A program made the position numbers and the translations under genes. A stretch of 64,000 nt of DNA from Spirochaetota bacterium (lineage in GTDB: Bacteria > Spirochaetota > UBA4802 > JAGODF01), in contig DAOSYC010000001.1 of NCBI GenBank assembly GCA_035380905.1, positions 30,207-94,206 on the forward strand, given 5' to 3'. The notes beneath the pieces are model-generated. The model worked only from the letters and a program-made list of their open reading frames with translations, had not been told where the DNA came from and ran no database searches. Below are positions 3,216-43,332 of this stretch, piece by piece. Position 1 is the first letter of the stretch. Each line of letters starts with the position of its first letter.

Positions 3216-5372
3216 TTACGTAGAACCATCACGGTTCGCCATATTTTCAAGAAACCGGCCGGATGCGAAGGAAATTCCGAGATCTTTAACAACGTGAAAC
3301 TCTTCCTCGGATAAAATATTATCAGCCATAACAGATGTTCCGAGTTGATCCGCAAATATTTTCACTCCGTTCACAATCTTAATTCTTTCCCTGAACAGAT
3401 GAATATTCCGCATGCAGTGTTCTGAAAAACTCAGCAGCCGAAGATCAGCCATTGAGATAATATTCAGGATATCATTCCCGATAAAACAGTTGCTTAAACC
3501 AAGTGAAATGTTCCCCGGCAACGTGCCGCTTTGACCGCATACAGCATGAACTGCGTGGTCGCACCATTTTTCATTTATCATGATAACAAGTTCCCTGTCG
3601 GGGAAAAACCTTGCCCCATGATCAATACATACTTCAAACGGAACATTCCGGATCATCGGCAGCAATACGGGAATATCACTGTTTCCGCTGCATATTTCTG
3701 CCATGCATTCGAGAAACCGCTGCAGGGACTTTTCATCCTTCACCGTCTCATGGACAGCTATATCAAGAATGGAAGACTCATATGTTCCATCCTGTATGCT
3801 GACAAACTGAAAGGCCTTTTCCAGTGTTTTTAGATCATAGCAGAAATGCCGTGAAAACACTTTTTTGATATCACTGTTGTTTCCTGTCAGGACAGAACGG
3901 CATATATCCAACGCATCAACTGCATCAGATATCATAGATCTGCACTGCAGAGATTCCTCTCTTATTCTTTTTAATTCAGAGATAAGGTCCCTGGGTGATT
4001 CTTTTTCATAGTATACTACATCACTGGAAAAGCGAATATTGTAATAATTACCTGACATTGAAATTTCAATTTCCCCGGCAATTTCTTTACAAAGTTCATG
4101 AAACTTATCCACATTAAATGAAAAATCAACGAAACTCGGGAATAGTATAAAAAAGTCATATTCATAGAGATCTGCGAGGCATAAATACGTATCTGAAGGG
4201 AAGTGGTTCTCACAGGATGCCATAATGATTCTTGAAATATTTTCCATATCATAATGGTAATTCTTTATTCCCCGCACAGTGCTGATATTTTTTTTCGATG
4301 ACAATGAAATGCTCATTGTCCCTATACTTTTTATTTCAAAATCAAGGTTTGTGATTTCTTCAAGAACAGCAGGAAGATAGCCGGCCCCTGTTACCAGGTC
4401 ATGGCCGTTCGCATCAATATACACTTCTTTTCGTGTCTTCAGGTATTCCCAGAACCTGTCATTCCTCGCCATGACGGAACTGTACACCAGTGTCCGGTCC
4501 CTTCCCTCCTCCTTTGCAGCATAGAGTGCATGATCCGCCCTTGAAAGAAGGTGCGATAAATTATTACCCATTACCGGGTATTCCGCGATTCCGGCGCTGA
4601 AGGAAACCCGGAAAAGTTCCCTGTTCCCTGTTTTAAAATCAATCCCCTTCAGTTCATCACGTATTGTATCAATTTTTATTCTTGCCTCCGCAGCAGAAAG
4701 CCCGGGGAAAAGCATTACAAATTCTTCACCCCCGAAACGTGCCGGGAAAAAACGTTCCGTGCTGTGCCGTTTTAAAACATCCCCGAGAGTCATGAGAACA
4801 TTATCACCCATCTGGTGGCCATACTGATCATTCACCCGTTTGAAATGATCAATGTCTATTAGAGCCAGTGAGATAATACCTTTTTCTGATTCATAAATTT
4901 CATTATTAAACCGTTTCAGGAATTCCCGCCTGTTATACAGACGGGTGAGCTCGTCTGTCACTGAAAGGTGATAAAATTCATTGAGTTGTTTCAGCTTTGA
5001 TTGCGTAAGGGCTTTCAGTTCCTCGGGAACCACCGGTTTCACCAGGTACGCATCCGCACCGCCCTGATACGCTTCAATCCTGTCAAAGGTATCATGTGAT
5101 TCAGAAAGAAAGATGAACGGGATAAGCCTGGTTTTTATCCCGGTCCTTATTTTTCTCAACAGGTCCAGACCGTCAATCTCAGGCAGCTCAAGGTCGGAAA
5201 TAATTAAATTCGGCAGCTTGTAGGTAATATTACTGAGGGCCTCAACCACACTTTTTGCTGTTATATAATTATATTCACTCCCTGACAGGACATTAATAAT
5301 ATGATTAATATCCTGTTCATCCGGCGTAACGATAAGAACTGTATTTGAGAAGGAATCTTTCATCATTTCCAA
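3216..5372 (-). CDS. Response regulator: REC receiver + GGDEF diguanylate cyclase, with about 430 aa of uncharacterised C-terminal extension
   Basis: Receiver motifs (VLIVTPDE..., LIISDLELPEIDGLDLL, ADAYLVKP). GGDEF domain with an intact GGEEF active site (RFGGEEFVMLFP) and the upstream DIDHFKRVNDQYGHQMGD segment. The long C-terminal region has no motif I can name. Confidence 0.85.
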   Translation of the reverse strand: MEMMKDSFSNTVLIVTPDEQDINHIINVLSGSEYNYITAKSVVEALSNITYKLPNLIISDLELPEIDGLDLLRKIRTGIKTRLIPFIFLSESHDTFDRIEAYQGGADAYLVKPVVPEELKALTQSKLKQLNEFYHLSVTDELTRLYNRREFLKRFNNEIYESEKGIISLALIDIDHFKRVNDQYGHQMGDNVLMTLGDVLKRHSTERFFPARFGGEEFVMLFPGLSAAEARIKIDTIRDELKGIDFKTGNRELFRVSFSAGIAEYPVMGNNLSHLLSRADHALYAAKEEGRDRTLVYSSVMARNDRFWEYLKTRKEVYIDANGHDLVTGAGYLPAVLEEITNLDFEIKSIGTMSISLSSKKNISTVRGIKNYHYDMENISRIIMASCENHFPSDTYLCLADLYEYDFFILFPSFVDFSFNVDKFHELCKEIAGEIEISMSGNYYNIRFSSDVVYYEKESPRDLISELKRIREESLQCRSMISDAVDALDICRSVLTGNNSDIKKVFSRHFCYDLKTLEKAFQFVSIQDGTYESSILDIAVHETVKDEKSLQRFLECMAEICSGNSDIPVLLPMIRNVPFEVCIDHGARFFPDRELVIMINEKWCDHAVHAVCGQSGTLPGNISLGLSNCFIGNDILNIISMADLRLLSFSEHCMRNIHLFRERIKIVNGVKIFADQLGTSVMADNILSEEEFHVVKDLGISFASGRFLENMANRDGST

Positions 5373-15792: not shown

Positions 15793-15964
15793 CATGAGAG
15801 AAATCCGCGCAAAACTTATGACCATCAACAGGGAGCACCATGACCCGGAGATCCTTCAACTTCTTGACTTGATCGCCTGGAAGCTTGAGGAATACGAAAA
15901 CAGAATCATCAATCTTGACAGGGTAATGCGTGACATTCTCACAGACAGAAGACCGTCGATGTAA
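15793..15964 (+). CDS. Small (57 aa) hypothetical helical protein immediately upstream of lexA
   Basis: Strong RBS (caGGAGGcacc ATG). Translates as MREIRAKLMTINREHHDPEILQLLDLIAWKLEEYENRIINLDRVMRDILTDRRPSM. The stop lies 70 nt before the lexA start, in the same orientation. No recognisable domain. Confidence 0.4.
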
Positions 15965-15974
15965 AAAAAAATGC

Positions 15975-32055: not shown

Positions 32056-33978
32056 ATGAAAAAAATATTTGACACAGAGGGGCTCCTGAAAGACGCTATT
32101 TCCTCCTATGAATTCAGGGAGGAGCAGTTAATTATGGCTGAATTCATTGCCAGCCGTCTTATTGAAACAGGAAACGCTATTATTGAGGCCGGTACAGGAA
32201 TCGGTAAAACAATGGCATACCTTATTCCTGTCATACTTCACGCTGTTGAACATAATAAACGAATTGCCATAAGTACAGAAACCAAAGCGCTTCAGAAACA
32301 GCTCATTGACAAGGATATACCGATTGCAAAAAAGGTCCTTAATGACTGCGGTATAGATTTTTCCTTCTCAATCTGTCTCGGCAGCGCAAACTATCCATGC
32401 CGCAGAAGGTTTGAAATCGCCAAGAGCCTTGGTTCATTTAAAAAGAAGGATATTCCTGCAGTAGAAAATTTCCAGGAACGATTCAGGAAGGGAGTACCTT
32501 TTTCAAGATTTGACGTTCGGGTTGATAATACCTTCTGGAACTCAATTTCCCGTGAACCTGATTCCTGCGGGTCGTTCAACTGCCCCTACTTTAACACCTG
32601 CCTTTTCCAGAAAGCAAAACGGGAATGGTCCCAGTCACAGGTACTGGTAATGAATCATTATCTTTTTTTTACCAATATTGCCTCTTCGAAAACATATCTT
32701 CCCCAGTGCGATATTGTAATATTTGACGAAGCCCACTCCCTGGAATCTATCGGATGTGCACAGCTCGGCTTTCGTGAAACGTACAACACGCTCATTGACA
32801 CCATTTCGCGTTTTGGAAGACGATCAAGAAAGAAACACCTTTTATCTGCCATAAAAGATAATACTGTTATGAACCGTGCAGTATCTCTGCTCCGTGACAT
32901 TGAAAGTGAATGCAGCAGATTTTTTGAATCCCTTCGTTCGCTTTGTGCAGGGAAACAGCATTACAGGTATGGTGAAACTCTTGGTATTGGTGAGCGCCTT
33001 GTGCTTCTTTTACGTGATTTTATCACCCCCCTGAACGCTGTAATTGACGACATTGAACACGAATCCGACAGAATTGAATTTGAAATTGCCCTCGGGAAGC
33101 TTTTCACCGCATACAAAAATATTGAAAGCGGAGTGTACCTTCACCGGGAGGAATTTGTGTACTGGATTGAAGGAAGCGGGAAAGATATGTTTGGTGATAT
33201 CGGCCTATACGGAAAACCGGTTGATATTTCTGAAACCATGGAAGCCGAGGTTAATTCTTTTTACGATACTGTTCTGTATATTTCAGCTACACTTTCGATT
33301 AAAGGCAGCTTTGATTATATTATTAAGCAGCTGGGGATACAGAACTTTTCGACACAGCTCCTTAAATCACCTTTTGATTACCGTAACCAGGTAACACTTC
33401 TGCTTGAAAAAGAAAACATTCTTCCTGACAGCAGCGAATATATATCAAGAATCGCCCGGACATCATCGGAAATAATTATACGTATGTCCGGAAACTGCCT
33501 CATTCTTTTTACATCATATGCAATGCTTCAGCGCGTAAAAGAAGAACTTTCTAATCTCATTGAATATCCTATTTTCGCCCAGGGTGACTACAATGCCGCG
33601 GATGTCATTGATAACTATTGCGAGACTGATGGTTCAGTACTCCTTGGAACCCATTCTTTCTGGCAGGGCATTGATCTTCCCGGAGATCTACTGAGGGGGG
33701 TTATTATTACGAGGCTTCCCTTTAGTGTTCCGGACCATCCACATTATCAGGCAAAAGTTGACCGGGAGGTATCCCTTGGTAAAAATCCTTTTTACACCCT
33801 CCAGGTTCCTGAAGCGATCATACGTTTTAAGCAGGGCTTCGGAAGACTAATACGCAGCAGAACCGACTATGGAATTGTGGCTGTTCTTGATCCCCGGATA
33901 ATTAATAAAAATTATGGATCACTTTTTTTACAATCTATACCTGAATGCAAAAAAATATTCAATATTTCCGAATTATGA
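32056..33978 (+). CDS. dinG: DinG/Rad3-family ATP-dependent DNA helicase (Fe-S helicase, DEAD_2)
   Basis: Walker A (IIEAGTGIGKTMAYLIP). A four-Cys Fe-S insertion (ICLGSANYPCRRRF...CGSFNCPYFNTC). A DEAH box (IVIFDEAHSLES). C-terminal helicase motifs V-VI (FTSYAMLQ..., VLLGTHSFWQGIDLPGD..., QGFGRLIRSRTDYG). Confidence 0.85.
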   Translation: MKKIFDTEGLLKDAISSYEFREEQLIMAEFIASRLIETGNAIIEAGTGIGKTMAYLIPVILHAVEHNKRIAISTETKALQKQLIDKDIPIAKKVLNDCGIDFSFSICLGSANYPCRRRFEIAKSLGSFKKKDIPAVENFQERFRKGVPFSRFDVRVDNTFWNSISREPDSCGSFNCPYFNTCLFQKAKREWSQSQVLVMNHYLFFTNIASSKTYLPQCDIVIFDEAHSLESIGCAQLGFRETYNTLIDTISRFGRRSRKKHLLSAIKDNTVMNRAVSLLRDIESECSRFFESLRSLCAGKQHYRYGETLGIGERLVLLLRDFITPLNAVIDDIEHESDRIEFEIALGKLFTAYKNIESGVYLHREEFVYWIEGSGKDMFGDIGLYGKPVDISETMEAEVNSFYDTVLYISATLSIKGSFDYIIKQLGIQNFSTQLLKSPFDYRNQVTLLLEKENILPDSSEYISRIARTSSEIIIRMSGNCLILFTSYAMLQRVKEELSNLIEYPIFAQGDYNAADVIDNYCETDGSVLLGTHSFWQGIDLPGDLLRGVIITRLPFSVPDHPHYQAKVDREVSLGKNPFYTLQVPEAIIRFKQGFGRLIRSRTDYGIVAVLDPRIINKNYGSLFLQSIPECKKIFNISEL

Positions 33979-34459
33979 CCTATTGAATTCCTGAATATTT
34001 AATTATTTTATTTAAAAAATATTTAGCAACATCATACTCCCAGACTATACACAAATTTACAACAATTATCAACAGGCAAACCACCCCTGCTAACAGGTAA
34101 TCCCCAGCCTGCTAACAAATTTAAAAATTTTTTTTATTTCATTTTGCGGTTCAATTAATTTCTTGCAAAAATTCCATGATTTAATCTATGCTATAGGGGA
34201 ATCGGGGAAAGGCCTGACTCCTTCAGGGCCACTTCTTGTGAATATTATCACTTTTTATGTCGTGTAACAGGTCTACTTTTCGTTATCACAAACTTTATTA
34301 AAAAAATTAAGCACAATATTACATTTTCAGCATTGCATTTACTCACTTTTTCTCCACATCCTGAAATAATATATAAACATGGATGAACAAAAAGTGTGTT
34401 TATATGTAGATTTATAAACAAAGATATCAACATTTGTTAATAACTTTCGGGATATACCT
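33979..34459. promoter_or_regulatory. AT-rich dnaA upstream region, part of a putative bipartite oriC with the dnaA promoter
   Basis: Non-coding stretch of 480 bp with DnaA-box-like 9-mers: TTATCAACA at 34066-34074 and TTCTCCACA at 34350-34358 (one mismatch each to TTATCCACA). It also has long A/T tracts at about 34000-34025 and 34110-34150 that could act as the unwinding element. Confidence 0.5.
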
Positions 34460-35821
34460 ATGATTCTTTCTAAACATGAAATATGGGACAAGGCATTATA
34501 TAATATTCAGTCTATTATAAATAAGCAGTCCTTTGATATGTGGCTCAAAGATACTGAGCCAATTTCCTATAATGAAAATAAAATGACTATTCGTGTTGCT
34601 GATGAGGTTGCACAGCGTCATATTTCTGATAACTACTCCAGCACTATTTCGTCAATTGTGAGTGATATCGCACATGCGACTATCATGTGCGAGTTTACTA
34701 CAGATGAAACGAAATCTGATCCTGATAACGATAGTACTACTTCTGATTCTCAGCCGGAGAAGAATATAATGATGTTCAGTAAGGAGCCTGAATCAGGTAA
34801 TCCTATGCTGAAACCTGAATATACCTTTGAGAATTTTGTTGTCGGTCCAAACAATCAGCTTCCCCATGCTGCAGCGGTTTCAGTTTCCAAAGCTCCTGCA
34901 ACACAATATAATCCGCTTTTTATTTACGGTGGTACCGGTCTTGGGAAAACCCATCTGATGCAGGCAATCGGCCACAGCATAATGAAAGAAAAGCCGTATA
35001 TGAAAGTTCTGTATATAACAACGGAACAATTCCTAAATGAATTTATTCACGCTATCAGTACAAATACTCTTCCAAGTTTTAAAATGAAATACCGGGATGT
35101 GGATATCCTGTTGATAGATGACATTCAGTTCATTGAGAAGAAGGAGCAGACGCAGGAGGAATTTTTTCACACTTTTAATACCCTCCATAACAATAAAAAA
35201 CAGATTATTATTTCAAGTGACAGGCCTCCAAAAGATCTTTCAACCCTTGAGGTTCGTCTCAGGACACGTTTTGAATGGGGACTTATTACTGATATTCAGC
35301 CTCCAAATGTTGAAACACGTGAAGCAATTCTCCGTAACAAGGCGGAGCGCCTTAATATTGATATTCCTGATGAAATTCTCAACTTCATCGCCAGGAGAAT
35401 AAAATCAAGTATTCGTGCTCTTGAAGCAGCGCTGATCCGTCTGAATGCTGTTTCATCTTTATCGAGTGAACCAATATCAATTTATCATGCAAAAAACCAT
35501 CTAAAGGATCTTTTTGATGAAGATACCAGTAAGAAAATAACCATTACTGATATAATACAGCGCGTGTCAGAAAAATATAATATTTCCGTTGAAGATCTTA
35601 AATCCAAGAGCAGACACAGCAGAGTGGTACATCCACGGTTTATTGCGATGTATATATCACGTAAACTCACTGATATGACAACGGTTGATATAGGGAGAGA
35701 ATTTGGTGACAGGGATCATTCCACGGTCCTCAATGCAATGAACAATGTTGAAAAAATGATGGCTGACGATGAAGATTTTCAGGAAACTGTAGAGGATCTT
35801 ATATCTGAAATCCGCAGTTAA
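34460..35821 (+). CDS. dnaA: Chromosomal replication initiator protein DnaA
   Basis: AAA+ Walker A (IYGGTGLGKTHLMQAIGH), box VII, and the C-terminal DNA-binding signature (IAMYISRKLTDMTTVDIGREFGDRDHSTV). Confidence 0.95.
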   Translation: MILSKHEIWDKALYNIQSIINKQSFDMWLKDTEPISYNENKMTIRVADEVAQRHISDNYSSTISSIVSDIAHATIMCEFTTDETKSDPDNDSTTSDSQPEKNIMMFSKEPESGNPMLKPEYTFENFVVGPNNQLPHAAAVSVSKAPATQYNPLFIYGGTGLGKTHLMQAIGHSIMKEKPYMKVLYITTEQFLNEFIHAISTNTLPSFKMKYRDVDILLIDDIQFIEKKEQTQEEFFHTFNTLHNNKKQIIISSDRPPKDLSTLEVRLRTRFEWGLITDIQPPNVETREAILRNKAERLNIDIPDEILNFIARRIKSSIRALEAALIRLNAVSSLSSEPISIYHAKNHLKDLFDEDTSKKITITDIIQRVSEKYNISVEDLKSKSRHSRVVHPRFIAMYISRKLTDMTTVDIGREFGDRDHSTVLNAMNNVEKMMADDEDFQETVEDLISEIRS

Positions 35822-36082
35822 TATACTGTTAATGCACTGTGTATTACTGTTGAAGTGTTGTGAATAAAATTCTTGTTCTTTTTGTTTTTTCATCGTATAT
35901 AATACTATAAAGACTTTTTCTAATAAATAACATTATTTAAAATATTTATCAACATGTTGCATTTTTTATAAGTCCTGAAGGGTTCAGTGGTTTTCGTGTT
36001 ATCCACATATTTTTTAACCCTACTATTGCTATTATAAAAACTAAATCTATATGTTAATATTAATTATAGTAAGGGATCAAAT
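35822..36082. promoter_or_regulatory. dnaA-dnaN intergenic DnaA-box cluster, the second part of the putative oriC
   Basis: Perfect TTATCCACA at 35999-36007. One-mismatch boxes TGTGAATAA (reverse complement TTATTCACA) at 35859-35867 and TTATCAACA at 35946-35954. About 75% AT. Confidence 0.6.
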
Positions 36083-37210
36083 ATGAAAATAGAAGTTGAT
36101 AGGGAAATGCTCCTCCGTGGAATTACTATTGCAGATTCCATTATTTCATCAAGGACCATTAGTACTATTTTATCCAACTGTCTTTTAAATATTTCAGAGT
36201 ATGGTATAGAAATAATTTCCACTGATAATGAAATCGGTATAAAAACTCAGGTCCCTGCTAAATCCGATAAATCCGGATCTTTTACGGTAAACGGAAAAAA
36301 ATTCGCCAGTATTCTGAAAGAGATGCCTAAGGGTGATGTTATTCTTGATATTGATGATTCCTTTCTCGTTCATGTCAGAAGTAAAGGAGTAAAAGGAAAT
36401 TATAAATTGTTCGGAACTTCACGTGGTGATTTTCCTGATGTTCCCGGATTTGATGATGACAAGTCCATTGAAGTAGATCAGCAGATGTTTAAGGATGTGA
36501 TACGAAAGGTTATTTACGCCGCGGCAACGGATCTTATAAAACCAGCGTTTAACGGCGTGTATTTCGTTTCAGAGGAACATGGTACGCTCTCAGCTGTTGC
36601 GACAGATTCAAAGCGTCTTGCATTGTACACATTGCCGATTAATCCGGAAGTAAAAATTGAAGAGGGCATCATTATTCCGCTTAAAACAATACATGAAATT
36701 TCACGTCTTTTGACGTCAACGGGCAATTGCAGATTTTACCTGGGACAGACACAATGTTTTTTCAGAATTGGAGATACTATGGTGGTGTCCCGTGTTGTTG
36801 ACGGCCAGTTTCCGAATTATAAACAGGTTATACCCAAAGAACAAAAAATGAATGCACTGGTTGATACCGGGAAGCTTATTGAATCTCTGCGCAGGGTAAT
36901 GATTTTCACTCGTGAGCCTTCGTACAAGGTAATTTTAAAGTTTTCATCAGATAATCTGAAAATTGAAGCACGGACACAGGATATCGGGGAAGCTGAAGAG
37001 GAATTATCAATTGCACTGAACTGTGAAGAAGAAATAACTATAGGTATAAGCGGCCAGTACCTTTTTGACGCGGTAAAGGAAATTGATTCAGATCAGGTTG
37101 TTCTCGGTATTACTTCTCAAATAAGTCCTGTTGTTGTCCGGCCTGAAGGAGAGGAGAAGCATATATCAGTAATTATGCCTATTCAGATCCGTTCTGATTC
37201 CTCTGAGTAA
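36083..37210 (+). CDS. dnaN: DNA polymerase III beta sliding clamp
   Basis: Length 375 aa. MKIEVDREMLLRGITIADSII...LSNCLLNIS with a three-domain clamp pattern and a C-terminal MPIQI. Confidence 0.95.
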   Translation: MKIEVDREMLLRGITIADSIISSRTISTILSNCLLNISEYGIEIISTDNEIGIKTQVPAKSDKSGSFTVNGKKFASILKEMPKGDVILDIDDSFLVHVRSKGVKGNYKLFGTSRGDFPDVPGFDDDKSIEVDQQMFKDVIRKVIYAAATDLIKPAFNGVYFVSEEHGTLSAVATDSKRLALYTLPINPEVKIEEGIIIPLKTIHEISRLLTSTGNCRFYLGQTQCFFRIGDTMVVSRVVDGQFPNYKQVIPKEQKMNALVDTGKLIESLRRVMIFTREPSYKVILKFSSDNLKIEARTQDIGEAEEELSIALNCEEEITIGISGQYLFDAVKEIDSDQVVLGITSQISPVVVRPEGEEKHISVIMPIQIRSDSSE

Positions 37211-37235
37211 TTGTGTGTGCATTGGCTAAACTGAA

Positions 37236-38344
37236 ATGTATGTTGAAAAGCTTGTATTAAAAAATTTCCGGAATTATGAATCACAGCATTTTAGTTTTTC
37301 CAGTGGAATGAATTTTATTGAGGGCAAAAACGGTGTAGGCAAGACTAATATTCTTGAGGCAATTTCTGTTATTTCAAATTTACGCTCTTTCAGGAATACT
37401 GTTGACAGAGAACTCATACAATGGGGAAATACGGCATATTTCTGTTCTGCTTCTGTTCTTGATAATGAAGATGCGTTATTTGAAGTTGGTTATTCTTTAA
37501 ATAATGAAAAATCAAAAAAACGCGTTAAAATTGATAATGTAGAGCTTCATAAGGCTCTTGACTATTTTGGAAGGCTTCTTACAGTAGTAATTTCTCCAGA
37601 TGACCTGAGTATTATAACCGGCAGTCCTGATATCCGCAGAAGATATTTTGATTCAGTTATTTCAAAGGCTGACAGTGGGTATTTTCAAACATTACTTGAG
37701 TTTAGAAAAATTCTATCTTCACGAAATACTGTGTTGAAAGGTCTGCGTGACGGAGCAGGCAGACGGGACAGGCAATTAGACGTCTGGGATGAAATGTTTT
37801 CTGAAACTGCTTCTTTTCTTGTGAAAAAAAGGGAGGAGTTTATTGCTGAATTTGCATCCTGGTTTTCAAATATATATATGGATATTTCAGGAGAGGGGCA
37901 CTCTCCACTTTTTACATATGCGTACTTCCCCGCATCATCCGGTAAAGATGATATATTTCGGGAACTTCAAAAAAGAAAAGAAAGAGATATACTGCTTGGT
38001 TCAACGTCAATTGGGCCTCAGCGTGATGATTATATACTGAAAAACAGAGAAGGTCATTTATTTCAAAATTATTCTTCTCAGGGTCAAAAGAGGACCGCGG
38101 CGGTATCGTTAAAGTTTTCTGAAATACTGTATATTGAAAAAAAAAGAAAAAAAAAACTATAATTTTAGTGGATGATATTTTTTCGGAGCTGGATTCATCC
38201 AGAAGGAAAAGTCTGCTTAATATTTTACAACGGGGCAACCAGGTGATATTCACCATGATTGACGACACACTTCAGGGATGTAATGTTGGTAGGGATTGTG
38301 TGGTGTACCGTATTAAAGAGGCAGGAGTAGTAGAAAAACTGTGA
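37236..38344 (+). pseudogene. recF: recF (DNA replication and repair protein RecF) with an interrupted reading frame. Codons 1-308 end at TAA 38160-38162; the conserved RecF C-terminus continues in the -1 frame to TGA 38342-38344.
   Basis: The N-terminus MYVEKLVLKNFRNYESQHFSF...IEGKNGVGKTNILEAI is the RecF Walker A. After the A9-G-A10 tract at 38137-38156, the -1 frame reads ...IILVDDIFSELDSSRRKSLLNILQRGNQVIFTMID..., which is the RecF signature / D-loop C-terminus. The two pieces together total about 369 aa, the normal RecF length. This could be a homopolymer sequencing error, a genuine frameshift, or slippage-dependent expression. Confidence 0.75.
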
Positions 38345-38682
38345 AGTTCAAGTTTAAAGAACTGCGTCAAAATAAAGTAGTAACATTAAATAATCTGTTC
38401 CCGTCAATTCTTTCTGAGTTTAATTTAACGGAAACCTTTGTTATTGATATCCTTAAAAAAGAGTGGAGCAGTATTGTTGATACCCTTATTGCTTCACATA
38501 GTGAGCCTGATAGAATATTTAAGGACACTCTGTATATTATTGCTGATCACCCGGTCTATTCCAATGAGATCCTGCTCATGAAAACCATGATTATCAACAG
38601 TATCTCTGAAAAGACAGGGATGGGATTCATCAGAGAGATAAGAGTTGAAGTAAAAAAAAATAATGATAAAAAGCGACGGTAG
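38341..38682 (+). CDS. DUF721 / DciA-like protein (candidate replicative-helicase operator/loader in DnaC-less bacteria)
   Basis: GTG start overlapping the recF C-terminal stop. The translation ...VIDILKKEWSSIVDTLIASHSEPDRIFKDTLYIIADHPVYSNEILLMKTMIINSI matches the DUF721 pattern (W..ivG..la.hs.P..i..g.L.i.v.s..w..eL). Its position between recF and gyrB is the canonical DUF721 locus, for example Rv0004 in M. tuberculosis. Confidence 0.65.
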   Translation: MKFKFKELRQNKVVTLNNLFPSILSEFNLTETFVIDILKKEWSSIVDTLIASHSEPDRIFKDTLYIIADHPVYSNEILLMKTMIINSISEKTGMGFIREIRVEVKKNNDKKRR

Positions 38683-38715
38683 GTTTGTACCCACATTTTA
38701 AAGAATACCGGATTA

Positions 38716-38973
38716 TTGAACATGTTTATTCATATAGGAAATAGAATAACAATTTCTGATACGCGTCTTGTAGGGATATTTAATGTTGAAACCCTCAAAT
38801 TTTCAGAGGATAATATTTTCTATTATTCAAAGTCCGGAAATGATGACAAGACAGTTGTTATTGATATTGATAATAATGTATATACGAGCGGTGTGAGCTC
38901 CTTTACGCTTATTAAGAGAAATATTTTAAAAGAAGGAATTATCTGGAGTAGGAACCATGGCGAAAGAATATAG
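38716..38973 (+). CDS. DUF370 / RemA-like small protein
   Basis: Length 85 aa. [26 protein letters not shown]...[25 protein letters not shown] resembles the RemA-family pattern (I.IGfgN.V...RIiaIv.pes...kr...ea.......DaT.GR.trsvIi.dS.hvilSav.peTl..R). It overlaps the gyrB start by 17 nt. Confidence 0.5.
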
Positions 38974-40855
38974 TGCTGATAATATTCAGGTGCTTGAGGG
39001 CCTTGAAGCTGTACGCAAAAGACCCGCAATGTATATAGGGTCGACGGATGTAAACGGACTGCACCATTGTGTGTATGAGATTGTTGATAACTCTATAGAT
39101 GAAGCACTCGGGGGATATTGCGATACAATTATTGTTACCATCCACAGTGATAATACCATTGAGGTGGTTGATAACGGAAGGGGTATTCCAGTTGAAAAAC
39201 ACCCGGTATATAAGGAATCTGCACTGGAGATTGTACTGACGAAACTTCATGCAGGGGGTAAATTCGATAATGAAAGTTATAAAGTATCAGGTGGACTTCA
39301 TGGTGTCGGTGTTTCTGTTGTAAATGCCCTTTCAAGCGAAATGAAAGTTGAAGTGTATAGAAATGAAAAAATTTATACCCAGAGCTATAAGAAAGGTATT
39401 CCTACGGGTAAAGTAAAAACAACTGGTGAAACAAAAAAAAGAGGTACCCGCACAGTATTCAGACCCGACAGTGAAATTTTTGAAACATTGGATTTTAATT
39501 TTGAGACCCTTTCCAAGCGCCTGAGAGAGCTTGCCTTTCTTAATGCCGGAGTTAAAATAATACTCCGTGATGACAGGGGAAAGGGTAAGGAACATGTATT
39601 TCAGTTCAAAGGCGGAATAGTGTCCTTTGTTCAGTATATCAATGAAAATAAAACTTCTGTCAGCAAAAAGGTTATATATTTTCATACTGAGCGGAACAAA
39701 GTTGATATAGAAATTGCTCTGGAATATATCGATACATACAATGAAACAGTGTATACCTATGCCAACAATATTAACACAAAGGAAGGCGGAACACACCTCA
39801 TCGGATTTAAATCTGCACTGACGAGGGTATTGAATGATTTTCTGAAAAAAGAAGGGTATGATAAAAAAATGTCACAGCTCACAGGAGATGATGTCCGTGA
39901 AGGTCTTGTGGCTATTGTAAGTGTCAAGCTTCCCAATCCACAGTTTGAAGGGCAGACGAAAATGAAGCTTGGCAATAACGATACCAAGGGTATTGTTGAA
40001 TCCGCTACAAATGAAAACCTGAGCCAGTTCTTTTATGAAAATCCGCAAATTGTGCGTAAGATTCTTGAAAAATGTATCCAAAGCGCGCAGTCACGTCTTG
40101 CTGCAAAAAAAGCGCGCGATCTTACGAGAAGGAAAAGCGCTCTTGAAAATGATACCCTTCCCGGGAAGCTTTCAGACTGTTCTGAAAGGGACCCTTCCCT
40201 CTGTGAAGTGTATATAGTAGAGGGGGATTCCGCAGGCGGTTCTGCAAAACAGGGACGGGATAGAAAGTTCCAGGCCATTTTGCCGATTAAAGGAAAAATT
40301 CTCAATGTTGAAAAAGCCCGTCTCCATAAAATCCTCTCAAACGAGGAAATTAAAACAATAATTACGGCAATTGGTACCGGCATTGGTGATGAAGAGTTTG
40401 ATGTTTCAAAAGCACGGTATCATAAAATAATAATAATGACTGACGCGGATGTTGATGGTGCCCATATCAGGACGCTGCTTCTTACGTTCTTTTTCAGGTA
40501 TATGCCGGAAATAATACGGAATGGATTTCTTTATATCGCCCAGCCTCCTCTGTACAGTATACGCACAGGGAAGGAACTTCACTATGCATACAGCGAAGAT
40601 GAACGTGAAAAAATAATTAAACCAATAGAAAATCAGAATTACACGCTTCAGAGATATAAAGGACTTGGCGAAATGAATCCTGATCAGCTCTGGGAAACCA
40701 CGATGAATCCGGATAACCGTACATTGTTAAAGGTTTCCATGGAAGATGAAATAGAAGCAGAGGAAGTGTTTTCAGTCCTTATGGGTGATGCTGTTGAGCC
40801 CAGAAGAAAATTCATTGAAGATAATGCCCGAAACGTAAGCAACCTTGACCTGTAA
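38957..40855 (+). CDS. gyrB: DNA gyrase subunit B
   Basis: Length 632 aa. GHKL ATPase motifs ([35 protein letters not shown]). TOPRIM ([36 protein letters not shown]). PLRGKILN-type motifs. Confidence 0.95.
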
Positions 40856-40875
40856 TTGTAAAAAGGAGCAAAATA

Positions 40876-43332
40876 GTGTCAAAGAAGAATGTAAACGATA
40901 ACGAACCAAACGAAAGAATTGTAAATATAGAGATTGAAGATCAGATGCGGACCTCCTATCTCGATTACGCGATGAGCGTAATTGTAGGGAGGGCTCTTCC
41001 TGATGTCCGGGACGGGCTGAAGCCTGTACACCGCAGGATTCTCCACGCAATGAATGTACGGGCGTGGAGGAATGACAGGCCATACGTGAAATCAGCGAAA
41101 ATTGTCGGGGAGGTAATAGGTAATTATCACCCCCATGGCGATGCCGCGGTGTACGATACCATTGTTCGTCTGGTGCAGAATTTTTCCATGCGGTTTCCGC
41201 TTATTGACGGTCAGGGTAATTACGGCTCTGTTGACGGTGACCCCGCAGCTGCATACCGGTATACCGAAGCACGACTGACAAAGATTTCCGATGAGATGCT
41301 CCGTGATATCGACAAGGAAACGGTTGATTTTATATCCAACTTTGATGATACCAGGAAAGAGCCGACAGTTCTTCCCGCAGCGTATCCTAATCTCCTGGTA
41401 AACGGTTCCTCCGGTATAGCTGTGGGTATGGCGACCAATATCCCTCCGCACAACCTAGCTGAAGTAATTGACGGCACAATCGCGCTTATCGAAAACCCTG
41501 ATCTTACCGTTAAACAGATGATGAAATATATCAAGGGCCCCGATTTTCCCACAGGTGCCATTATAATGGGGGCTGACGGTATTTATAAGGCATATACTAC
41601 GGGCCGCGGCAGTGTTGTTGTGCGCGGCAGAGTGGATATCGAAGAGGACAAGAAGGGTAAGGAGTATATCATTATTTCTGAAATTCCATATCAGGTGAAT
41701 AAGGCGTCACTTGTTACACGAATAGCTGAGCTGGTGAATAATAAAGTAATTGAAGGTATTACTGAACTGAGAGACGAATCGGACAGGTCGGGGATGAGGG
41801 TCGTTATCGGACTGAAAAAAACTGCCAACAGCGCCATTATTATAAACCAGCTTTATAAGAACACACCACTCCAGAGTTCATTCGGGATTAATATGCTTGC
41901 TCTGGTTAATAATGAACCGAAGACCCTTGATATAAAAGGGGTTCTTTCAAATTATATCCTTCACAGAAAAAATGTAATAACACGAAGGACACAATACCAG
42001 CTTAAGAAAGCTGAAGAGCGGGCCCATATCCTGCAGGGCCTGAAAATTGCCCTTGATAATATTGATGAAGTAATCCGTATAATCCGTGCTTCGAAGACCG
42101 TTGATGACGCCCAGAACCGGCTCATGAAGACATTTAAACTGTCCGAGATTCAGGCAAAAGCAATTCTGGACATGCGGCTGCAGAAGCTTACCAGCCTGGA
42201 AGTGAAGAAGATTGTTGATGAACTGAATGAGCTTTTAAAGCTTATCAAGGAACTCCAGGCAATTTTAAAAAGCGATAAAAAAATCCTTGGAATTGTCAGG
42301 GATGAGATGGTTGAAATAAAGGAAAAGTATTCCGACAAGCGGAGAACTGAGATCCAGATTGGCGGCGAGACCTCCACAAGTTTTGATGTGGAAGACCTTA
42401 TCGCTGAAGAGGACATGGTTATCACGATAACCAATGACGGTTTTCTCCGGCGCCTGTCCATTGATACGTTTAAAAAGCAGCGTAGGGGCGGCAAGGGAGT
42501 TAGCGGCATCACAATTAAAAAAGAAGATTTTATAAAGATGATGAGTATATCATCTACTCACGATAATATCTTTCTTTTTTCAAATAAGGGAAAGGTATTC
42601 GGGCTGAAAACCCACGAAATTCCCCTTGCCACAAAAGCGGGACGGGGGAAATCCGTGAAGGGGATTATTAATCTCGCGAAGGGGGAGGATATTACCGCGA
42701 TATGCTCTGTCCCTGATTTCGAAGAAGAAAAGTACCTCTGCATGGCTACAAAAGGGGGAATACTGAAAAAAATTGATGTGAATGATTTTACCAATGCCAA
42801 AAAAGGTGGAATCATTGCAATAAATCTTAAAAAAGACGACGAACTGGTAGATGTAAAACTGGTGGGAAAAAATGATGATGTGGTGATCGCGTCAAAAGAA
42901 GGGCTGATTCTCAGGACAAATCTTGGTAAAATGCGGGCCATGGGAAGAAATGCCGGCGGTATTATTGGAATGAGAATCGGTAGCAGTGATGAAGTCATCG
43001 GGCTTGATGTGGTAAAAGATAATTCCAGCCTTTTTGTTATTACTTCAAAGGGTTTCGGGAAAAATATTCACTTTAAGAATTTTACCAACAAGGGCCGTGG
43101 CGGAAAAGGGATGACATATCTCAAGGTCACTGAAAAAGTCGGCCATGCAATTGAAATACGCTCGGTTTTTCCCGATGATGAAATAATAATTGCGTCGAAA
43201 AGCGGTATGACCATCAGGCTACTCGCAAAGGATGTATCTGTGCAGGGACGTACTGCAAGCGGAGTTCGGCTCCTGAATATCGGTGATGATGATATGGTTT
43301 CTGATGTCGCAGCTATAACCGAGGAAAAGTAG
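40876..43332 (+). CDS. gyrA: DNA gyrase subunit A
   Basis: Length 818 aa, GTG start. Active-site Tyr region (AAAYRYTEARL). A QRDR-like segment (HPHGDAAVYDTIVRL). C-terminal beta-pinwheel repeats. Confidence 0.95.
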   Translation: MSKKNVNDNEPNERIVNIEIEDQMRTSYLDYAMSVIVGRALPDVRDGLKPVHRRILHAMNVRAWRNDRPYVKSAKIVGEVIGNYHPHGDAAVYDTIVRLVQNFSMRFPLIDGQGNYGSVDGDPAAAYRYTEARLTKISDEMLRDIDKETVDFISNFDDTRKEPTVLPAAYPNLLVNGSSGIAVGMATNIPPHNLAEVIDGTIALIENPDLTVKQMMKYIKGPDFPTGAIIMGADGIYKAYTTGRGSVVVRGRVDIEEDKKGKEYIIISEIPYQVNKASLVTRIAELVNNKVIEGITELRDESDRSGMRVVIGLKKTANSAIIINQLYKNTPLQSSFGINMLALVNNEPKTLDIKGVLSNYILHRKNVITRRTQYQLKKAEERAHILQGLKIALDNIDEVIRIIRASKTVDDAQNRLMKTFKLSEIQAKAILDMRLQKLTSLEVKKIVDELNELLKLIKELQAILKSDKKILGIVRDEMVEIKEKYSDKRRTEIQIGGETSTSFDVEDLIAEEDMVITITNDGFLRRLSIDTFKKQRRGGKGVSGITIKKEDFIKMMSISSTHDNIFLFSNKGKVFGLKTHEIPLATKAGRGKSVKGIINLAKGEDITAICSVPDFEEEKYLCMATKGGILKKIDVNDFTNAKKGGIIAINLKKDDELVDVKLVGKNDDVVIASKEGLILRTNLGKMRAMGRNAGGIIGMRIGSSDEVIGLDVVKDNSSLFVITSKGFGKNIHFKNFTNKGRGGKGMTYLKVTEKVGHAIEIRSVFPDDEIIIASKSGMTIRLLAKDVSVQGRTASGVRLLNIGDDDMVSDVAAITEEK

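What the first reader, a model, noticed from the sequence alone, without database searches (positions are those of the whole stretch)
38120..38344. recF reading frame is broken inside an A9-G-A10 tract, and the conserved C-terminus continues in the -1 frame
The RecF N-terminal 308 codons terminate at TAA 38160-38162. The last 62 aa of a normal RecF, including the ILLVDDIFSELD Walker-B/D-loop region, are encoded directly downstream in the -1 frame through to TGA 38342-38344. The switch point sits inside GAAAAAAAAAGAAAAAAAAAAC (38136-38157). A single-base indel in the A10 run would restore the frame, so one explanation is a homopolymer sequencing or assembly error. A second is a true frameshift, which would leave a RecF pseudogene in an otherwise intact dnaA-dnaN-recF-gyrBA origin cluster. 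A third is expression rescued by RNA-polymerase transcriptional slippage or -1 ribosomal slippage on the A-run. Both slippage mechanisms are known for A runs of 9 or more and for A-AAA-AAG-type heptamers such as E. coli dnaX.
Basis: seen in the sequence. Interest (0 to 1): 0.6.

Follow-up and report, generated by a model that had tools for sequence, protein, structure and literature searches.

The report
Conserved poly-A frameshift inside recF
The DNA-repair gene recF of this uncultivated spirochaete is split by a one-base frameshift in a run of ten A's that is real, is shared by related species and still encodes a selected protein, so the cell most likely makes full-length RecF by slipping on the A run.

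Summary
recF (37236-38162) stops at TAA 38160-38162. The last 62 codons, with Walker B and the D-loop, continue in the -1 frame to TGA 38342-38344. The two frames overlap for only 22 nt (38138-38159), which is the A9-G-A10 tract.

It is not a sequencing error. The same A10 occurs in 11 distinct alleles from independent assemblies of three species-level lineages that are about 80% identical in DNA. A fourth lineage has A11 and is in frame.

It is not a pseudogene. The -1-frame segment has dN/dS of 0.05-0.07 between frameshifted lineages, although synonymous sites are saturated. It has no stops and no indels.

It is not a split gene, because no start codon is conserved for the C-terminal piece.

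The run itself is kept as pure A at synonymous sites (chance about 0.005). No conserved RNA structure or Shine-Dalgarno-like stimulator flanks it.

Best explanation: a long-maintained frameshift decoded by slippage on A10. The favoured step is RNA polymerase adding one A, possibly helped by -1 ribosomal slippage on A-AAA-AAA. DNA-level phase variation is not excluded.

This is a new member of a known kind (Blochmannia/Buchnera poly-A frameshifts, Shigella spa13, Thermus dnaX). No RNA or protein data were available to confirm it.

The parts
37236..38162 (+). recF zero-frame ORF: 308 codons plus TAA. It carries Walker A (GKNGVGKT) and the signature motif (SSQGQKRTAA) but not Walker B.
   Evidence: TIGR00611 271.9 bits against a cut-off of 172. 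Identical to the NCBI protein HON76894.1, annotated as a 308-aa RecF.
38137..38145 (+). Upstream A9 run (codons GAA AAA AAA A..), found only in the window's own lineage. It is a second possible slip site inside the overlap window.
   Evidence: Lineages X, Y and Z have ACTATA, AATATA and AAAGTA here.
38147..38156 (+). A10 run (AGA AAA AAA AAA C), the conserved slippery run and the inferred shift site. It is A10 in lineages W, X and Y and A11 (in frame) in lineage Z.
   Evidence: All-AAA and AGA codon conservation has a chance of about 0.005.
38138..38159 (+). The 22-nt stretch where the zero and -1 frames are both open. The shift must happen here. It is bounded by the -1-frame TGA 38135-38137 and the zero-frame TAA 38160-38162.
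   Evidence: The window is 22 nt in all 8 frameshifted DNA sequences.
38156..38344 (+). recF C-terminal segment in the -1 frame: 62 codons plus TGA. It encodes TIILVDD (Walker B), SELD (D-loop) and the GNQVIFT region.
   Evidence: dN/dS is 0.05-0.07 between frameshifted lineages with dS above 1.
38341..38682 (+). dciA/DUF721-like gene. Its GTG start overlaps the recF -1-frame stop (GTGA 38341-38344), so its translation may be coupled only to ribosomes that read full-length recF.
   Evidence: Pfam PF05258 E=1.3e-10. The same overlap is seen in L001, L003 and L004.

Best explanation
The A10 tract is a real frameshift that has been kept for a long time in a functional recF gene. As written in the DNA, translation ends 4 nt after the run and gives a 308-aa product without Walker B or the D-loop. 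Full-length 369-aa RecF (...RKKKTIILVDD...) is made from a fraction of expression events that slip by one base inside the 22-nt overlap window. The favoured step is RNA polymerase realigning on the A10 run (T10 in the template) and adding one A. That gives a mixed mRNA pool in which the A11 transcripts are in frame. Unstimulated -1 ribosomal slippage of tRNA-Lys on A-AAA-AAA may add to this. The likely net effect is a low, capped level of RecF, and perhaps of the dciA gene that overlaps its stop. Shown here: the frameshift is real, it is shared by diverged lineages, the downstream frame is under purifying selection, the run is conserved, and no stimulatory element is conserved. Inferred: the slippage itself, which polymerase or ribosome step performs it, and any benefit.
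For: (1) The frameshift is real. The window and two JGI contigs of the same species (L005, L006) are 99.5-99.7% identical, differ only by SNPs, have no indels, and all carry A9GA10. Lineage X (L001/L002) and lineage Y (L003, L007, L012, which differ by SNPs only) are about 80% identical in DNA to the window and also have AGA10C. The cluster members give 4 alleles for W, 1 for X and 6 for Y, and all end RKKK[L/Q]*. Lineage Z (L004, 92% identical to Y) has A11 and is in frame. No uniform miscounting error could therefore put all four lineages in frame. The other A8-A9, T8, C7 and G7 runs inside ORFs of the window break nothing, and the gene map shows no other split gene. (2) The downstream segment is translated. 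The 62-codon -1-frame segment has dN/dS of 0.067 (W-X), 0.070 (W-Y) and 0.050 (X-Y) with dS above 1. It has no stops or indels, whereas the other two frames are full of stops. (3) The shift site is pinned to a 22-nt window that holds the A10 run in every frameshifted sequence. (4) The run is preserved. All three Lys codons are AAA and the Arg codon is AGA in all four lineages. The background is 36.5% all-AAA among 126 conserved Lys columns and 10.5% all-AGA among 105 conserved Arg columns, which gives about 0.005. Only A10 and A11 are seen, never A9 or A12. (5) The restored product is colinear with solved RecF structures across the junction. (6) Precedent: A/T runs of 9 or more cause RNA-polymerase slippage in bacteria. 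Frameshifted genes with conserved poly-A tracts are rescued this way in Buchnera and Blochmannia, with about 30% full-length transcripts. Shigella spa13 (A10) and Thermus dnaX (A9) use the same mechanism (PMC3017870, PMC6260861, PMC3711429, PMC1088944). (7) No conserved hairpin, pseudoknot or Shine-Dalgarno-like element flanks the site. This fits slippage on a long run, which needs no stimulator, better than stimulated -1 ribosomal frameshifting.
Against: No transcript, read-level or protein data were available, so slippage is inferred and not observed. E. coli RNA polymerase slips less on A runs than on T runs in some reporters (PMC6260861), and nothing is known about the spirochaete enzyme. 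Assemblies report only the majority tract length, so minority A11 subpopulations (phase variation) cannot be excluded. The A10/A11 difference between the closely related lineages Y and Z shows that the DNA tract does change length. Lineage X rests on two identical contigs from sibling runs, and lineage Z rests on one contig. The test for conservation of the run (about 0.005) assumes that codons and lineages are independent. K-K just before [ST][IV]ILVDD is also common in in-frame relatives, so part of the A richness is due to coding constraint.
Confidence: 0.68

Rival explanations
1. The same recoding outcome arises mainly at the ribosome. This would be -1 frameshifting of tRNA-Lys on A-AAA-AAA within an unedited A10 mRNA, as at the E. 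coli dnaX A-AAA-AAG site.
For: The zero frame reads AG[A AAA AAA] AAA C, so a canonical X-XXY-YYZ heptamer lies in the required window. AAA-AAA alone promotes measurable -1 shifting in E. coli (PMC1851650). The protein product would be identical to that of transcriptional slippage.
Against: There is no conserved downstream structure. The consensus fold is only -2.85 kcal/mol, no pair covaries, and single-sequence z-scores run from -0.99 to +0.68. No Shine-Dalgarno-like stretch is visible upstream by reading, and the upstream region does not fold significantly either. No Rfam frameshift element matches. Selection seems to keep the whole 10-11 nt run, which is longer than a heptamer needs. Unstimulated -1 shifting is usually only a few percent efficient.
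Confidence: 0.18
2. The tract is a DNA-level phase-variable switch (contingency locus). Replication slippage toggles it between A10 (RecF off) and A11 (RecF on). Populations are mostly off, and selection on the C-terminus acts through the on cells.
For: A10-A11 runs are hypermutable in replication (PMC3711429, PMC1088944). The closely related lineages Y (A10) and Z (A11) differ in exactly this way. Assemblies show only the majority length.
Against: All 11 alleles within lineages W, X and Y have A10, including Y alleles up to 14 amino acids apart. No in-frame allele of W, X or Y appeared in a search of 5.8 billion protein clusters. A frequent switch should show both states among strains. recF is not a surface, restriction-modification or similar gene of the kind that is usually phase variable. 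An off majority is hard to square with dN/dS of 0.05-0.07 on the C-part. RNA-polymerase slippage on A10 would in any case blur the off state.
Confidence: 0.12
3. Homopolymer sequencing or assembly error: the true tract is A11 and the gene is ordinary.
For: Long homopolymers are the classic place for indel errors, and a single base restores the frame.
Against: The identical length is found in independent assemblies: JGI, ENA/SPAdes, NCBI TPA MAGs and Logan. They cover strains that differ by SNPs and three lineages about 20% apart in DNA, and there are no other indels. A11 was assembled correctly in lineage Z, and a uniform undercount would put Z out of frame instead. Other homopolymers in the window leave their genes intact.
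Confidence: 0.03
4. recF is a true pseudogene, or the truncated 308-aa product is the only product and the downstream segment is dead sequence.
For: As annotated, the gene ends at 308 aa without Walker B. recF evolves faster than its neighbours, with omega of 0.12-0.15 against 0.02-0.07.
Against: The C-terminal segment is intact and under strong purifying selection in its own frame in three frameshifted lineages that are saturated at synonymous sites. The N-part has omega of 0.14. There are no further disabling mutations. The frameshifted lineage Y and the in-frame lineage Z show the same omega.
Confidence: 0.02
5. A split RecF: the C-terminal 58-62 aa are translated as a separate polypeptide, by reinitiation after the TAA, and assemble with the 308-aa fragment.
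For: A GTG (38168) lies 6 nt after the zero-frame stop in lineages W and X. Gene callers called a 58-aa ORF there. Purifying selection on the C-part would be explained equally well.
Against: That codon is GTA in lineages Y and Z. In Y there is no ATG, GTG or TTG before the Met of TMIDD, which lies well past Walker B. No Shine-Dalgarno sequence precedes it. I know of no precedent for an ABC-type ATPase head cut between the signature motif and the Walker B strand. The conserved A run would be left unexplained.
Confidence: 0.04

Closest known systems
Poly(A)-tract frameshifts in the insect endosymbionts Buchnera and Blochmannia, rescued by transcriptional slippage (Tamas et al. 2008 and Wernegreen et al. 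2010, as summarised in PMC3017870)
   Same: There is a single-base indel inside an A run of 10 or more in an otherwise intact housekeeping gene, including replication genes such as dnaX and dnaG. The frameshift is shared between species, the gene shows no degradation, and one related lineage appears to have reverted. The inferred result is a mixed mRNA pool in which only a minority of transcripts is in frame.
   Different: The host here appears to be an uncultivated Spirochaetota organism recovered from wastewater-type metagenomes (one relative's contig is titled activated sludge), with about 42% GC in this window. It is not an AT-rich reduced endosymbiont genome with more than 100 such tracts. 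In the 64-kb window recF is the only coding run of 10 or more and the only broken gene. The gene affected, recF, has not been reported for this in the papers I searched. No transcript data exist here.
Programmed transcriptional realignment in chromosomal genes: Thermus thermophilus dnaX (A9), two-ORF dnaX with A10 in the GeneTack clusters, Shigella flexneri spa13 (A10) and mxiE (T9) (PMC3711429, PMC6260861, PMC5009743)
   Same: An A/T run of 9-10 lies at the junction of two overlapping frames, no RNA stimulator is required, and both a truncated and a full-length product are expected.
   Different: In those cases slippage was demonstrated experimentally, and the two products or the regulatory role are known. 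Here neither has been shown. One sister lineage manages with an in-frame A11, so the frameshift is not obligatory.
E. coli dnaX -1 programmed ribosomal frameshifting (A-AAA-AAG with an upstream Shine-Dalgarno sequence and a downstream hairpin)
   Same: A Lys-codon slippery heptamer is used, the shift is -1, and the gene belongs to the replication/repair set.
   Different: No Shine-Dalgarno-like element and no conserved downstream hairpin were found. The heptamer is A-AAA-AAA inside a much longer run. In dnaX the shift makes the short product, whereas here it would make the long, functional one.
Homopolymer phase-variable contingency genes (for example poly-A in Mycoplasma fermentans p78 and poly-G/C in type III methyltransferases; PMC3711429)
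   Same: A homopolymer inside the coding sequence sets the reading frame by its length. The length differs (A10 against A11) between two close lineages.
   Different: No length polymorphism was seen among 11 alleles within lineages. The gene is a cytoplasmic repair ATPase and not a surface or restriction-modification gene. The apparent off state is the fixed majority.

Membership tests
RecF (TIGR00611; ABC/SMC-type ATPase of the RecFOR pathway) | The whole-protein HMM score is above the curated cut-off | tested here: met
   The N-part alone scores 271.9 bits against a cut-off of 172. The C-part matches profile positions 299-338 of 339. The restored protein matches Pfam SMC_N over residues 2-343 in one stretch.
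RecF (TIGR00611; ABC/SMC-type ATPase of the RecFOR pathway) | Walker A, signature motif, Walker B and D-loop occur in order with family spacing | tested here: met
   GKNGVGKT and SSQGQKRTAA are in the zero frame, and IILVDD and SELD are in the -1 frame. After adding one A, the alignment to solved RecF 5z67 is gap-free across the junction. The motifs are not contiguous in the DNA as written.
RecF (TIGR00611; ABC/SMC-type ATPase of the RecFOR pathway) | Synteny dnaA-dnaN-recF-(dciA)-gyrB at the replication origin | tested here: met
Transcriptional-slippage (programmed or corrective realignment) sites | An uninterrupted A or T run of at least 9 lies exactly at the frame junction | tested here: met
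   The A10 run lies within a 22-nt overlap window in all 8 frameshifted DNA sequences. The threshold of 9 is taken from PMC1088944 and PMC6260861.
Transcriptional-slippage (programmed or corrective realignment) sites | The frameshift is conserved across species, with purifying selection on both sides | tested here: met
   Three lineages about 20% apart in DNA share it. omega is 0.14 for the N-part and 0.05-0.07 for the C-part.
Transcriptional-slippage (programmed or corrective realignment) sites | The run is preserved against synonymous interruption | tested here: met
   AGA AAA AAA AAA is found in all four lineages, with a chance of about 0.005 given background codon conservation. The independence assumptions are crude.
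Transcriptional-slippage (programmed or corrective realignment) sites | mRNA is heterogeneous in run length beyond the DNA and RT-PCR background | not testable with these tools
   No reads or transcriptomes were accessible.
Transcriptional-slippage (programmed or corrective realignment) sites | Full-length trans-frame protein is detected | not testable with these tools
   No proteomic data were available.
-1 programmed ribosomal frameshift sites (dnaX / IS3 type) | An X-XXY-YYZ slippery heptamer is in phase with the zero frame | tested here: met
   A-AAA-AAA is in phase (AG A AAA AAA AAA C).
-1 programmed ribosomal frameshift sites (dnaX / IS3 type) | A conserved downstream hairpin or pseudoknot, and/or an upstream Shine-Dalgarno-like stimulator | tested here: not met
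   RNAalifold gives -2.85 kcal/mol with 0 covarying pairs. Single folds have z-scores from -0.99 to +1.19. There is no Rfam hit, and no G-rich stretch upstream.
Phase-variable contingency loci (slipped-strand mispairing) | Tract length is polymorphic among closely related strains or within populations | tested here: inconclusive
   There is no variation among 11 alleles within lineages W, X and Y. Y (A10) and Z (A11), 92% identical in DNA, do differ. Within-sample read data were not available.
Pseudogene | Selection is relaxed (dN/dS near 1) and further lesions lie downstream of the frameshift | tested here: not met
   dN/dS is 0.05-0.07, with no stops or indels in 62 codons in any lineage.

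The most novel reading that the evidence does not exclude
The frameshift is not merely tolerated but is a selected expression device. In this reading the A10 state is held by selection because it caps RecF at a low level. It may also make RecF output, the amount of truncated RecF(1-308), and the translation of the overlapping helicase-loader-like gene dciA depend on RNA-polymerase fidelity, for example on nucleotide pools, stress or Gre factors. Alternatively the tract acts as a heritable A10/A11 switch that turns the RecFOR repair pathway on and off in a free-living bacterium. In the window's own lineage the tract also forms the spacer of a near-consensus promoter (TTGAAA, 18 nt, TATAAT), so tract length could in addition tune an internal promoter for dciA-gyrBA.
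Probability: 0.15. Interest if true: 0.65.

Novelty: new member of a known kind. Interest (0 to 1): 0.5.

Why it matters
First, annotation. Public records list this gene as a 308-aa "RecF" (for example HON76894.1, HPJ37850.1, HQO01146.1). Pipelines would otherwise call it a pseudogene or an error. The comparative evidence indicates that the organism keeps a functional full-length RecF that cannot be read directly from the DNA.

Second, biology. Conserved poly-A frameshifts that survive by polymerase slippage are documented mainly in AT-rich, drift-dominated insect endosymbionts. A case in a moderate-GC lineage that does not look like a reduced endosymbiont, maintained across lineages saturated at synonymous sites, would suggest that small population size is not a precondition. 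It sits in a core recombination-repair gene within the dnaA-dnaN-recF-gyrBA cluster, so it also links RecF dosage to transcription fidelity.

Third, it is directly testable with read pile-ups, cDNA amplicons and a simple two-frame reporter.

Tried and rejected
- **Sequencing error:** rejected by independent assemblies and strains that share A10, and by A11 in lineage Z.
- **Error-prone assembly in general:** rejected. All other homopolymers of 7-8 bases or more inside ORFs are in frame, and the gene map has no other split gene. The A9 at 15963, which looked like a second frameshift, is intergenic: it lies between a stop codon and a lexA-like gene.
- **Pseudogene:** rejected by dN/dS.
- **Independent translation of the C-part:** rejected because no start codon is conserved.
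- **Stimulatory RNA structure or a known frameshift element:** nothing found up- or downstream, and no Rfam hit.
- **Plasmid collection search with recF DNA:** no match.
- **Tracing the tract into outgroups:** relatives at 48-53% identity have GKK/KKK here but no long run (AAG AAA AAA or GGG AAG AAG). DNA for two of the closer outgroups could not be fetched.
- **Searching with the 62-aa C-part to find other split recF genes:** this returned only the window lineage's own 58-aa ORF, because short queries collect few candidates. How widespread the split is outside this clade remains unknown.
- **Genome and metagenome scans with the restored protein:** these added only one MAG and one ENA contig of lineage Y, plus distant in-frame relatives.
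- **Literature:** recF does not appear in the GeneTack study or in the Atkins 2016 review. The two papers that mention both recF and transcriptional slippage do not connect them. Wagner 1990 and Tamas 2008 are not held in the library.
Full report
**1. The observation**

Reading 37100-38500 and translating all three forward frames confirms the finding.
- The recF zero frame runs from ATG 37236 to TAA 38160-38162 (308 codons) and ends ...SLKFSEILYIEKKRKKKL*.
- The -1 frame is closed by TGA 38135-38137. It then reads KKKKKKTIILVDDIFSELDSSRRKSLLNILQRGNQVIFTMIDD... up to TGA 38342-38344.
- The tract is G-A9-G-A10-C at 38136-38157.
- The only inaccuracy in the finding is the quoted peptide, which is IILVDD and not ILLVDD.
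- The two frames are open together for only 22 nt (38138-38159), so any frame change must happen inside the A-rich tract.
- Adding one A gives a 369-aa protein. It aligns to the solved RecF 5z67 without a gap across the junction: KRKKKTIILVDDIFSELD against ETGEKPVLLLDDVMSELD.
- The N-part alone passes the RecF equivalog model (271.9 bits, cut-off 172). The C-part matches the last 40 profile positions.
- The surroundings are a normal origin cluster: a DinG/YoaA-like helicase, dnaA, dnaN, recF, a dciA/DUF721 gene, gyrB and gyrA, at the minimum of cumulative GC skew.

**2. Not a sequencing or assembly artefact**

A protein search with the restored RecF gave the key lead.
- Three of the four nearest clusters are truncated at the same residue: P0001 (99% identity, 308 aa), P0003 (78%, ...TIRKKKL*) and P0004 (74%, ...NIRKKKQ*).
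- The fourth, P0002 (76%), reads through (...VRKKKTVILVDD...).

I fetched the DNA and scanned the genome and metagenome collections. This defines four species-level lineages.

| Lineage | Sequences | Tract |
|---|---|---|
| W | window, L005, L006 | A9GA10 |
| X | L001 = L002 | AGA10C |
| Y | L003, L007 (a SPAdes MAG), L012 (an ENA activated-sludge contig) | AGA10C |
| Z | L004 | AGA11C, in frame |

- W, X and Y/Z are about 80% identical to each other in DNA. Y and Z are 92% identical.
- Within W and within Y the sequences differ by SNPs only, with not one indel in up to 5.9 kb. They are therefore different strains that agree on every homopolymer length.
- Cluster membership adds more alleles: 4 for W (the window's N-part is identical to NCBI HON76894.1), 1 for X and 6 for Y, the last up to 14 residues apart. 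All end RKKK[L/Q]*, which means A10.
- Z shows that A11 can be assembled. A uniform undercount would put Z out of frame instead.
- In the window itself, A8-A9, T8, C7 and G7 runs inside other ORFs cause no breaks. A greedy gene map shows no other split gene.
- An A9 at 15963 that abuts two ORFs turned out to be intergenic.

**3. Not a pseudogene and not a split gene**

All four lineages have 307 codons before and 62 codons after the run, with no indels and no stops. The table gives Nei-Gojobori dN/dS values.

| Region | Comparison | dN/dS |
|---|---|---|
| C-part, -1 frame | W-X | 0.067 |
| C-part, -1 frame | W-Y | 0.070 |
| C-part, -1 frame | X-Y | 0.050 |
| N-part | all pairs | about 0.14 |
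| Whole recF | all pairs | 0.12-0.15 |
| dnaA, dnaN, dciA, gyrB | most pairs | 0.02-0.07 |

- Synonymous sites in the C-part are saturated (pS 0.68-0.71, dS above 1), and the other two frames of that segment are full of stops.
- The segment after the frameshift has therefore been translated in its own frame throughout a divergence that saturated synonymous sites.
- recF evolves faster than its neighbours. The frameshifted lineage Y and the in-frame lineage Z give the same value (0.146), so the frameshift has not visibly relaxed selection.
- Independent translation of the C-part is unlikely. The GTG six bases after the stop in W and X is GTA in Y and Z. In Y no ATG, GTG or TTG occurs before the Met of TMIDD, which lies beyond Walker B. 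No Shine-Dalgarno sequence precedes it.

**4. The run itself looks selected**

- In all four lineages the codons are AGA AAA AAA AAA.
- Across dnaA, dnaN, recF, dciA and gyrB, only 36.5% of the 126 columns with Lys in all four lineages are AAA in all four. Only 10.5% of the 105 conserved Arg columns are AGA in all four.
- This gives roughly 0.365 cubed times 0.105, or about 0.005, for the uninterrupted run. It is a crude estimate that assumes independence.
- Only A10 and A11 are seen, never A9 or A12.
- Relatives at 48-53% identity keep K-K before [ST][IV]ILVDD but have no long run (AAG AAA AAA, or GGG AAG AAG). The long run and the frameshift therefore belong to this clade.
- Y and Z are sisters. 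One gain of an A in Z is more parsimonious than two or three independent losses, so the frameshifted state is probably ancestral. Parsimony is weak evidence for a hypermutable tract.

**5. Mechanism**

Shown here:
- The frameshift is real and conserved.
- Selection acts on both sides of it.
- The run is conserved.
- The shift window is 22 nt.

Inferred: expression crosses the frames by slippage on the A run. Two known mechanisms would give the same product, RKKK-TIILVDD.

- **Transcriptional slippage (favoured).** Runs of 9 or more A/T are established slip sites for bacterial RNA polymerase. Known examples are Thermus dnaX (A9), Shigella spa13 (A10) and mxiE (T9), and the Buchnera and Blochmannia poly-A genes, where about 30% of transcripts from frameshifted genes were full length (PMC1088944, PMC3711429, PMC6260861, PMC3017870). 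Insertions are reported to be favoured over deletions on A7-A11 (PMC6260861, discussion). That fits a state needing one added A being tolerated while A12 is not seen.
- **-1 ribosomal slippage on A-AAA-AAA.** This is possible and may contribute (PMC1851650). I found no stimulator:
  - The alignment folds are weak (-2.85 and -5.59 kcal/mol) with no covarying pairs.
  - Single-sequence z-scores run from -0.99 to +1.19.
  - No Shine-Dalgarno-like element is visible by reading.
  - No Rfam family matches.
- **DNA-level phase variation.** This cannot be excluded without reads. The uniform A10 within lineages argues against frequent switching.

Likely consequence (inference): RecF is made at a reduced level alongside a truncated 308-aa product. 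The recF stop overlaps the dciA start (GTGA 38341-38344, conserved in all lineages). Ribosomes that stop at 38162 are therefore 178 nt short of dciA, and dciA translation may partly depend on frame correction.

**6. Comparison with what is known**

- The closest match is the corrective or conserved poly-A frameshift of insect endosymbionts.
- It differs in its host: about 42% GC in this window, one such tract in 64 kb, and no sign of a reduced endosymbiont genome. It also differs in the gene affected.
- It resembles programmed transcriptional realignment in dnaX, spa13 and mxiE, but no slippage has been demonstrated here.
- It fails one defining feature of stimulated -1 ribosomal frameshift sites, because no stimulator was found.
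- Its membership among phase-variable loci is inconclusive.
- recF is not mentioned in the GeneTack survey or in the 2016 recoding review. The two papers that contain both terms do not connect them.
- I file it as a new member of a known kind.

**7. Verdict**

- The finding is real and well observed.
- Confidence that full-length RecF is produced by slippage on the run is about 0.7. RNA polymerase is favoured over the ribosome about 2 to 1 or more.
- Interest is moderate (0.5). It is a clean, testable new recoding candidate in a core repair gene of a lineage that does not look like an endosymbiont, and it corrects the public annotations, but the mechanism class is already known.

Noticed in passing
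window 38134-38163 (+): The best sigma-70-like match in 33900-39100 lies exactly over the recF tract: TTGAAA, an 18-nt A-rich spacer, then TATAAT (11 of 12). Tract length would set the spacer of this internal promoter upstream of dciA-gyrBA. The -10 element is not kept in the other lineages (TGTAAT, AGTAAT, GGTAAT), so it is probably a by-product of the I-E-K and T-I-I codons.
   Followed up: partly
window 38341-38344 (+); also L001 7127, L003 1795, L004 3763: The recF -1-frame stop overlaps the GTG start of the dciA/DUF721-like gene (GTGA) in all lineages, with an AGGAG or GGGAG about 13-14 nt upstream. This suggests translational coupling that only frame-corrected recF translation could provide.
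   Followed up: partly
window 38716-38973 (+); L001 7505-7756, L004 4142-4393, L006 1789-2040: A conserved ORF of 83-85 aa with no Pfam match lies between dciA and gyrB and overlaps the gyrB start. It was called as a gene in every related contig.
   Followed up: no
window 15963-15971: This A9 run abuts two + strand ORFs and looked like a second frameshift. It is intergenic, lying between a TAA stop (15962-15964) and a lexA-like gene (ATG 16036), with a TTGACA-type promoter-like site nearby.
   Followed up: yes
window 38652-38660 (+) and L008 about 3881-3889: Other A9 runs stay in frame: one near the end of dciA in the window, and one in a distant in-frame recF (TCT GAA AAA AAA ATT). A9 runs are therefore tolerated in coding sequence in these genomes.
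   Followed up: no
window 1-64000: ARAGORN found no tRNA or tmRNA gene, and no Rfam family reached its gathering score anywhere in the 64-kb window.
   Followed up: no
window 34460-43332 compared with L001, L004 and L007: RecF is the fastest-evolving protein of the origin cluster. It is 74-78% identical between lineages, against 92-94% for DnaA, 87-91% for DnaN, 94% for GyrB and about 95% for GyrA. Its omega is 0.12-0.15, against 0.02-0.07 for dnaA, dnaN, dciA and gyrB.
   Followed up: partly
L004 2657-2729: The JGI gene call for the in-frame relative (P0002, 345 aa) starts at an internal Met. The ORF is open from ATG 2657, which gives the usual 369 aa.
   Followed up: yes
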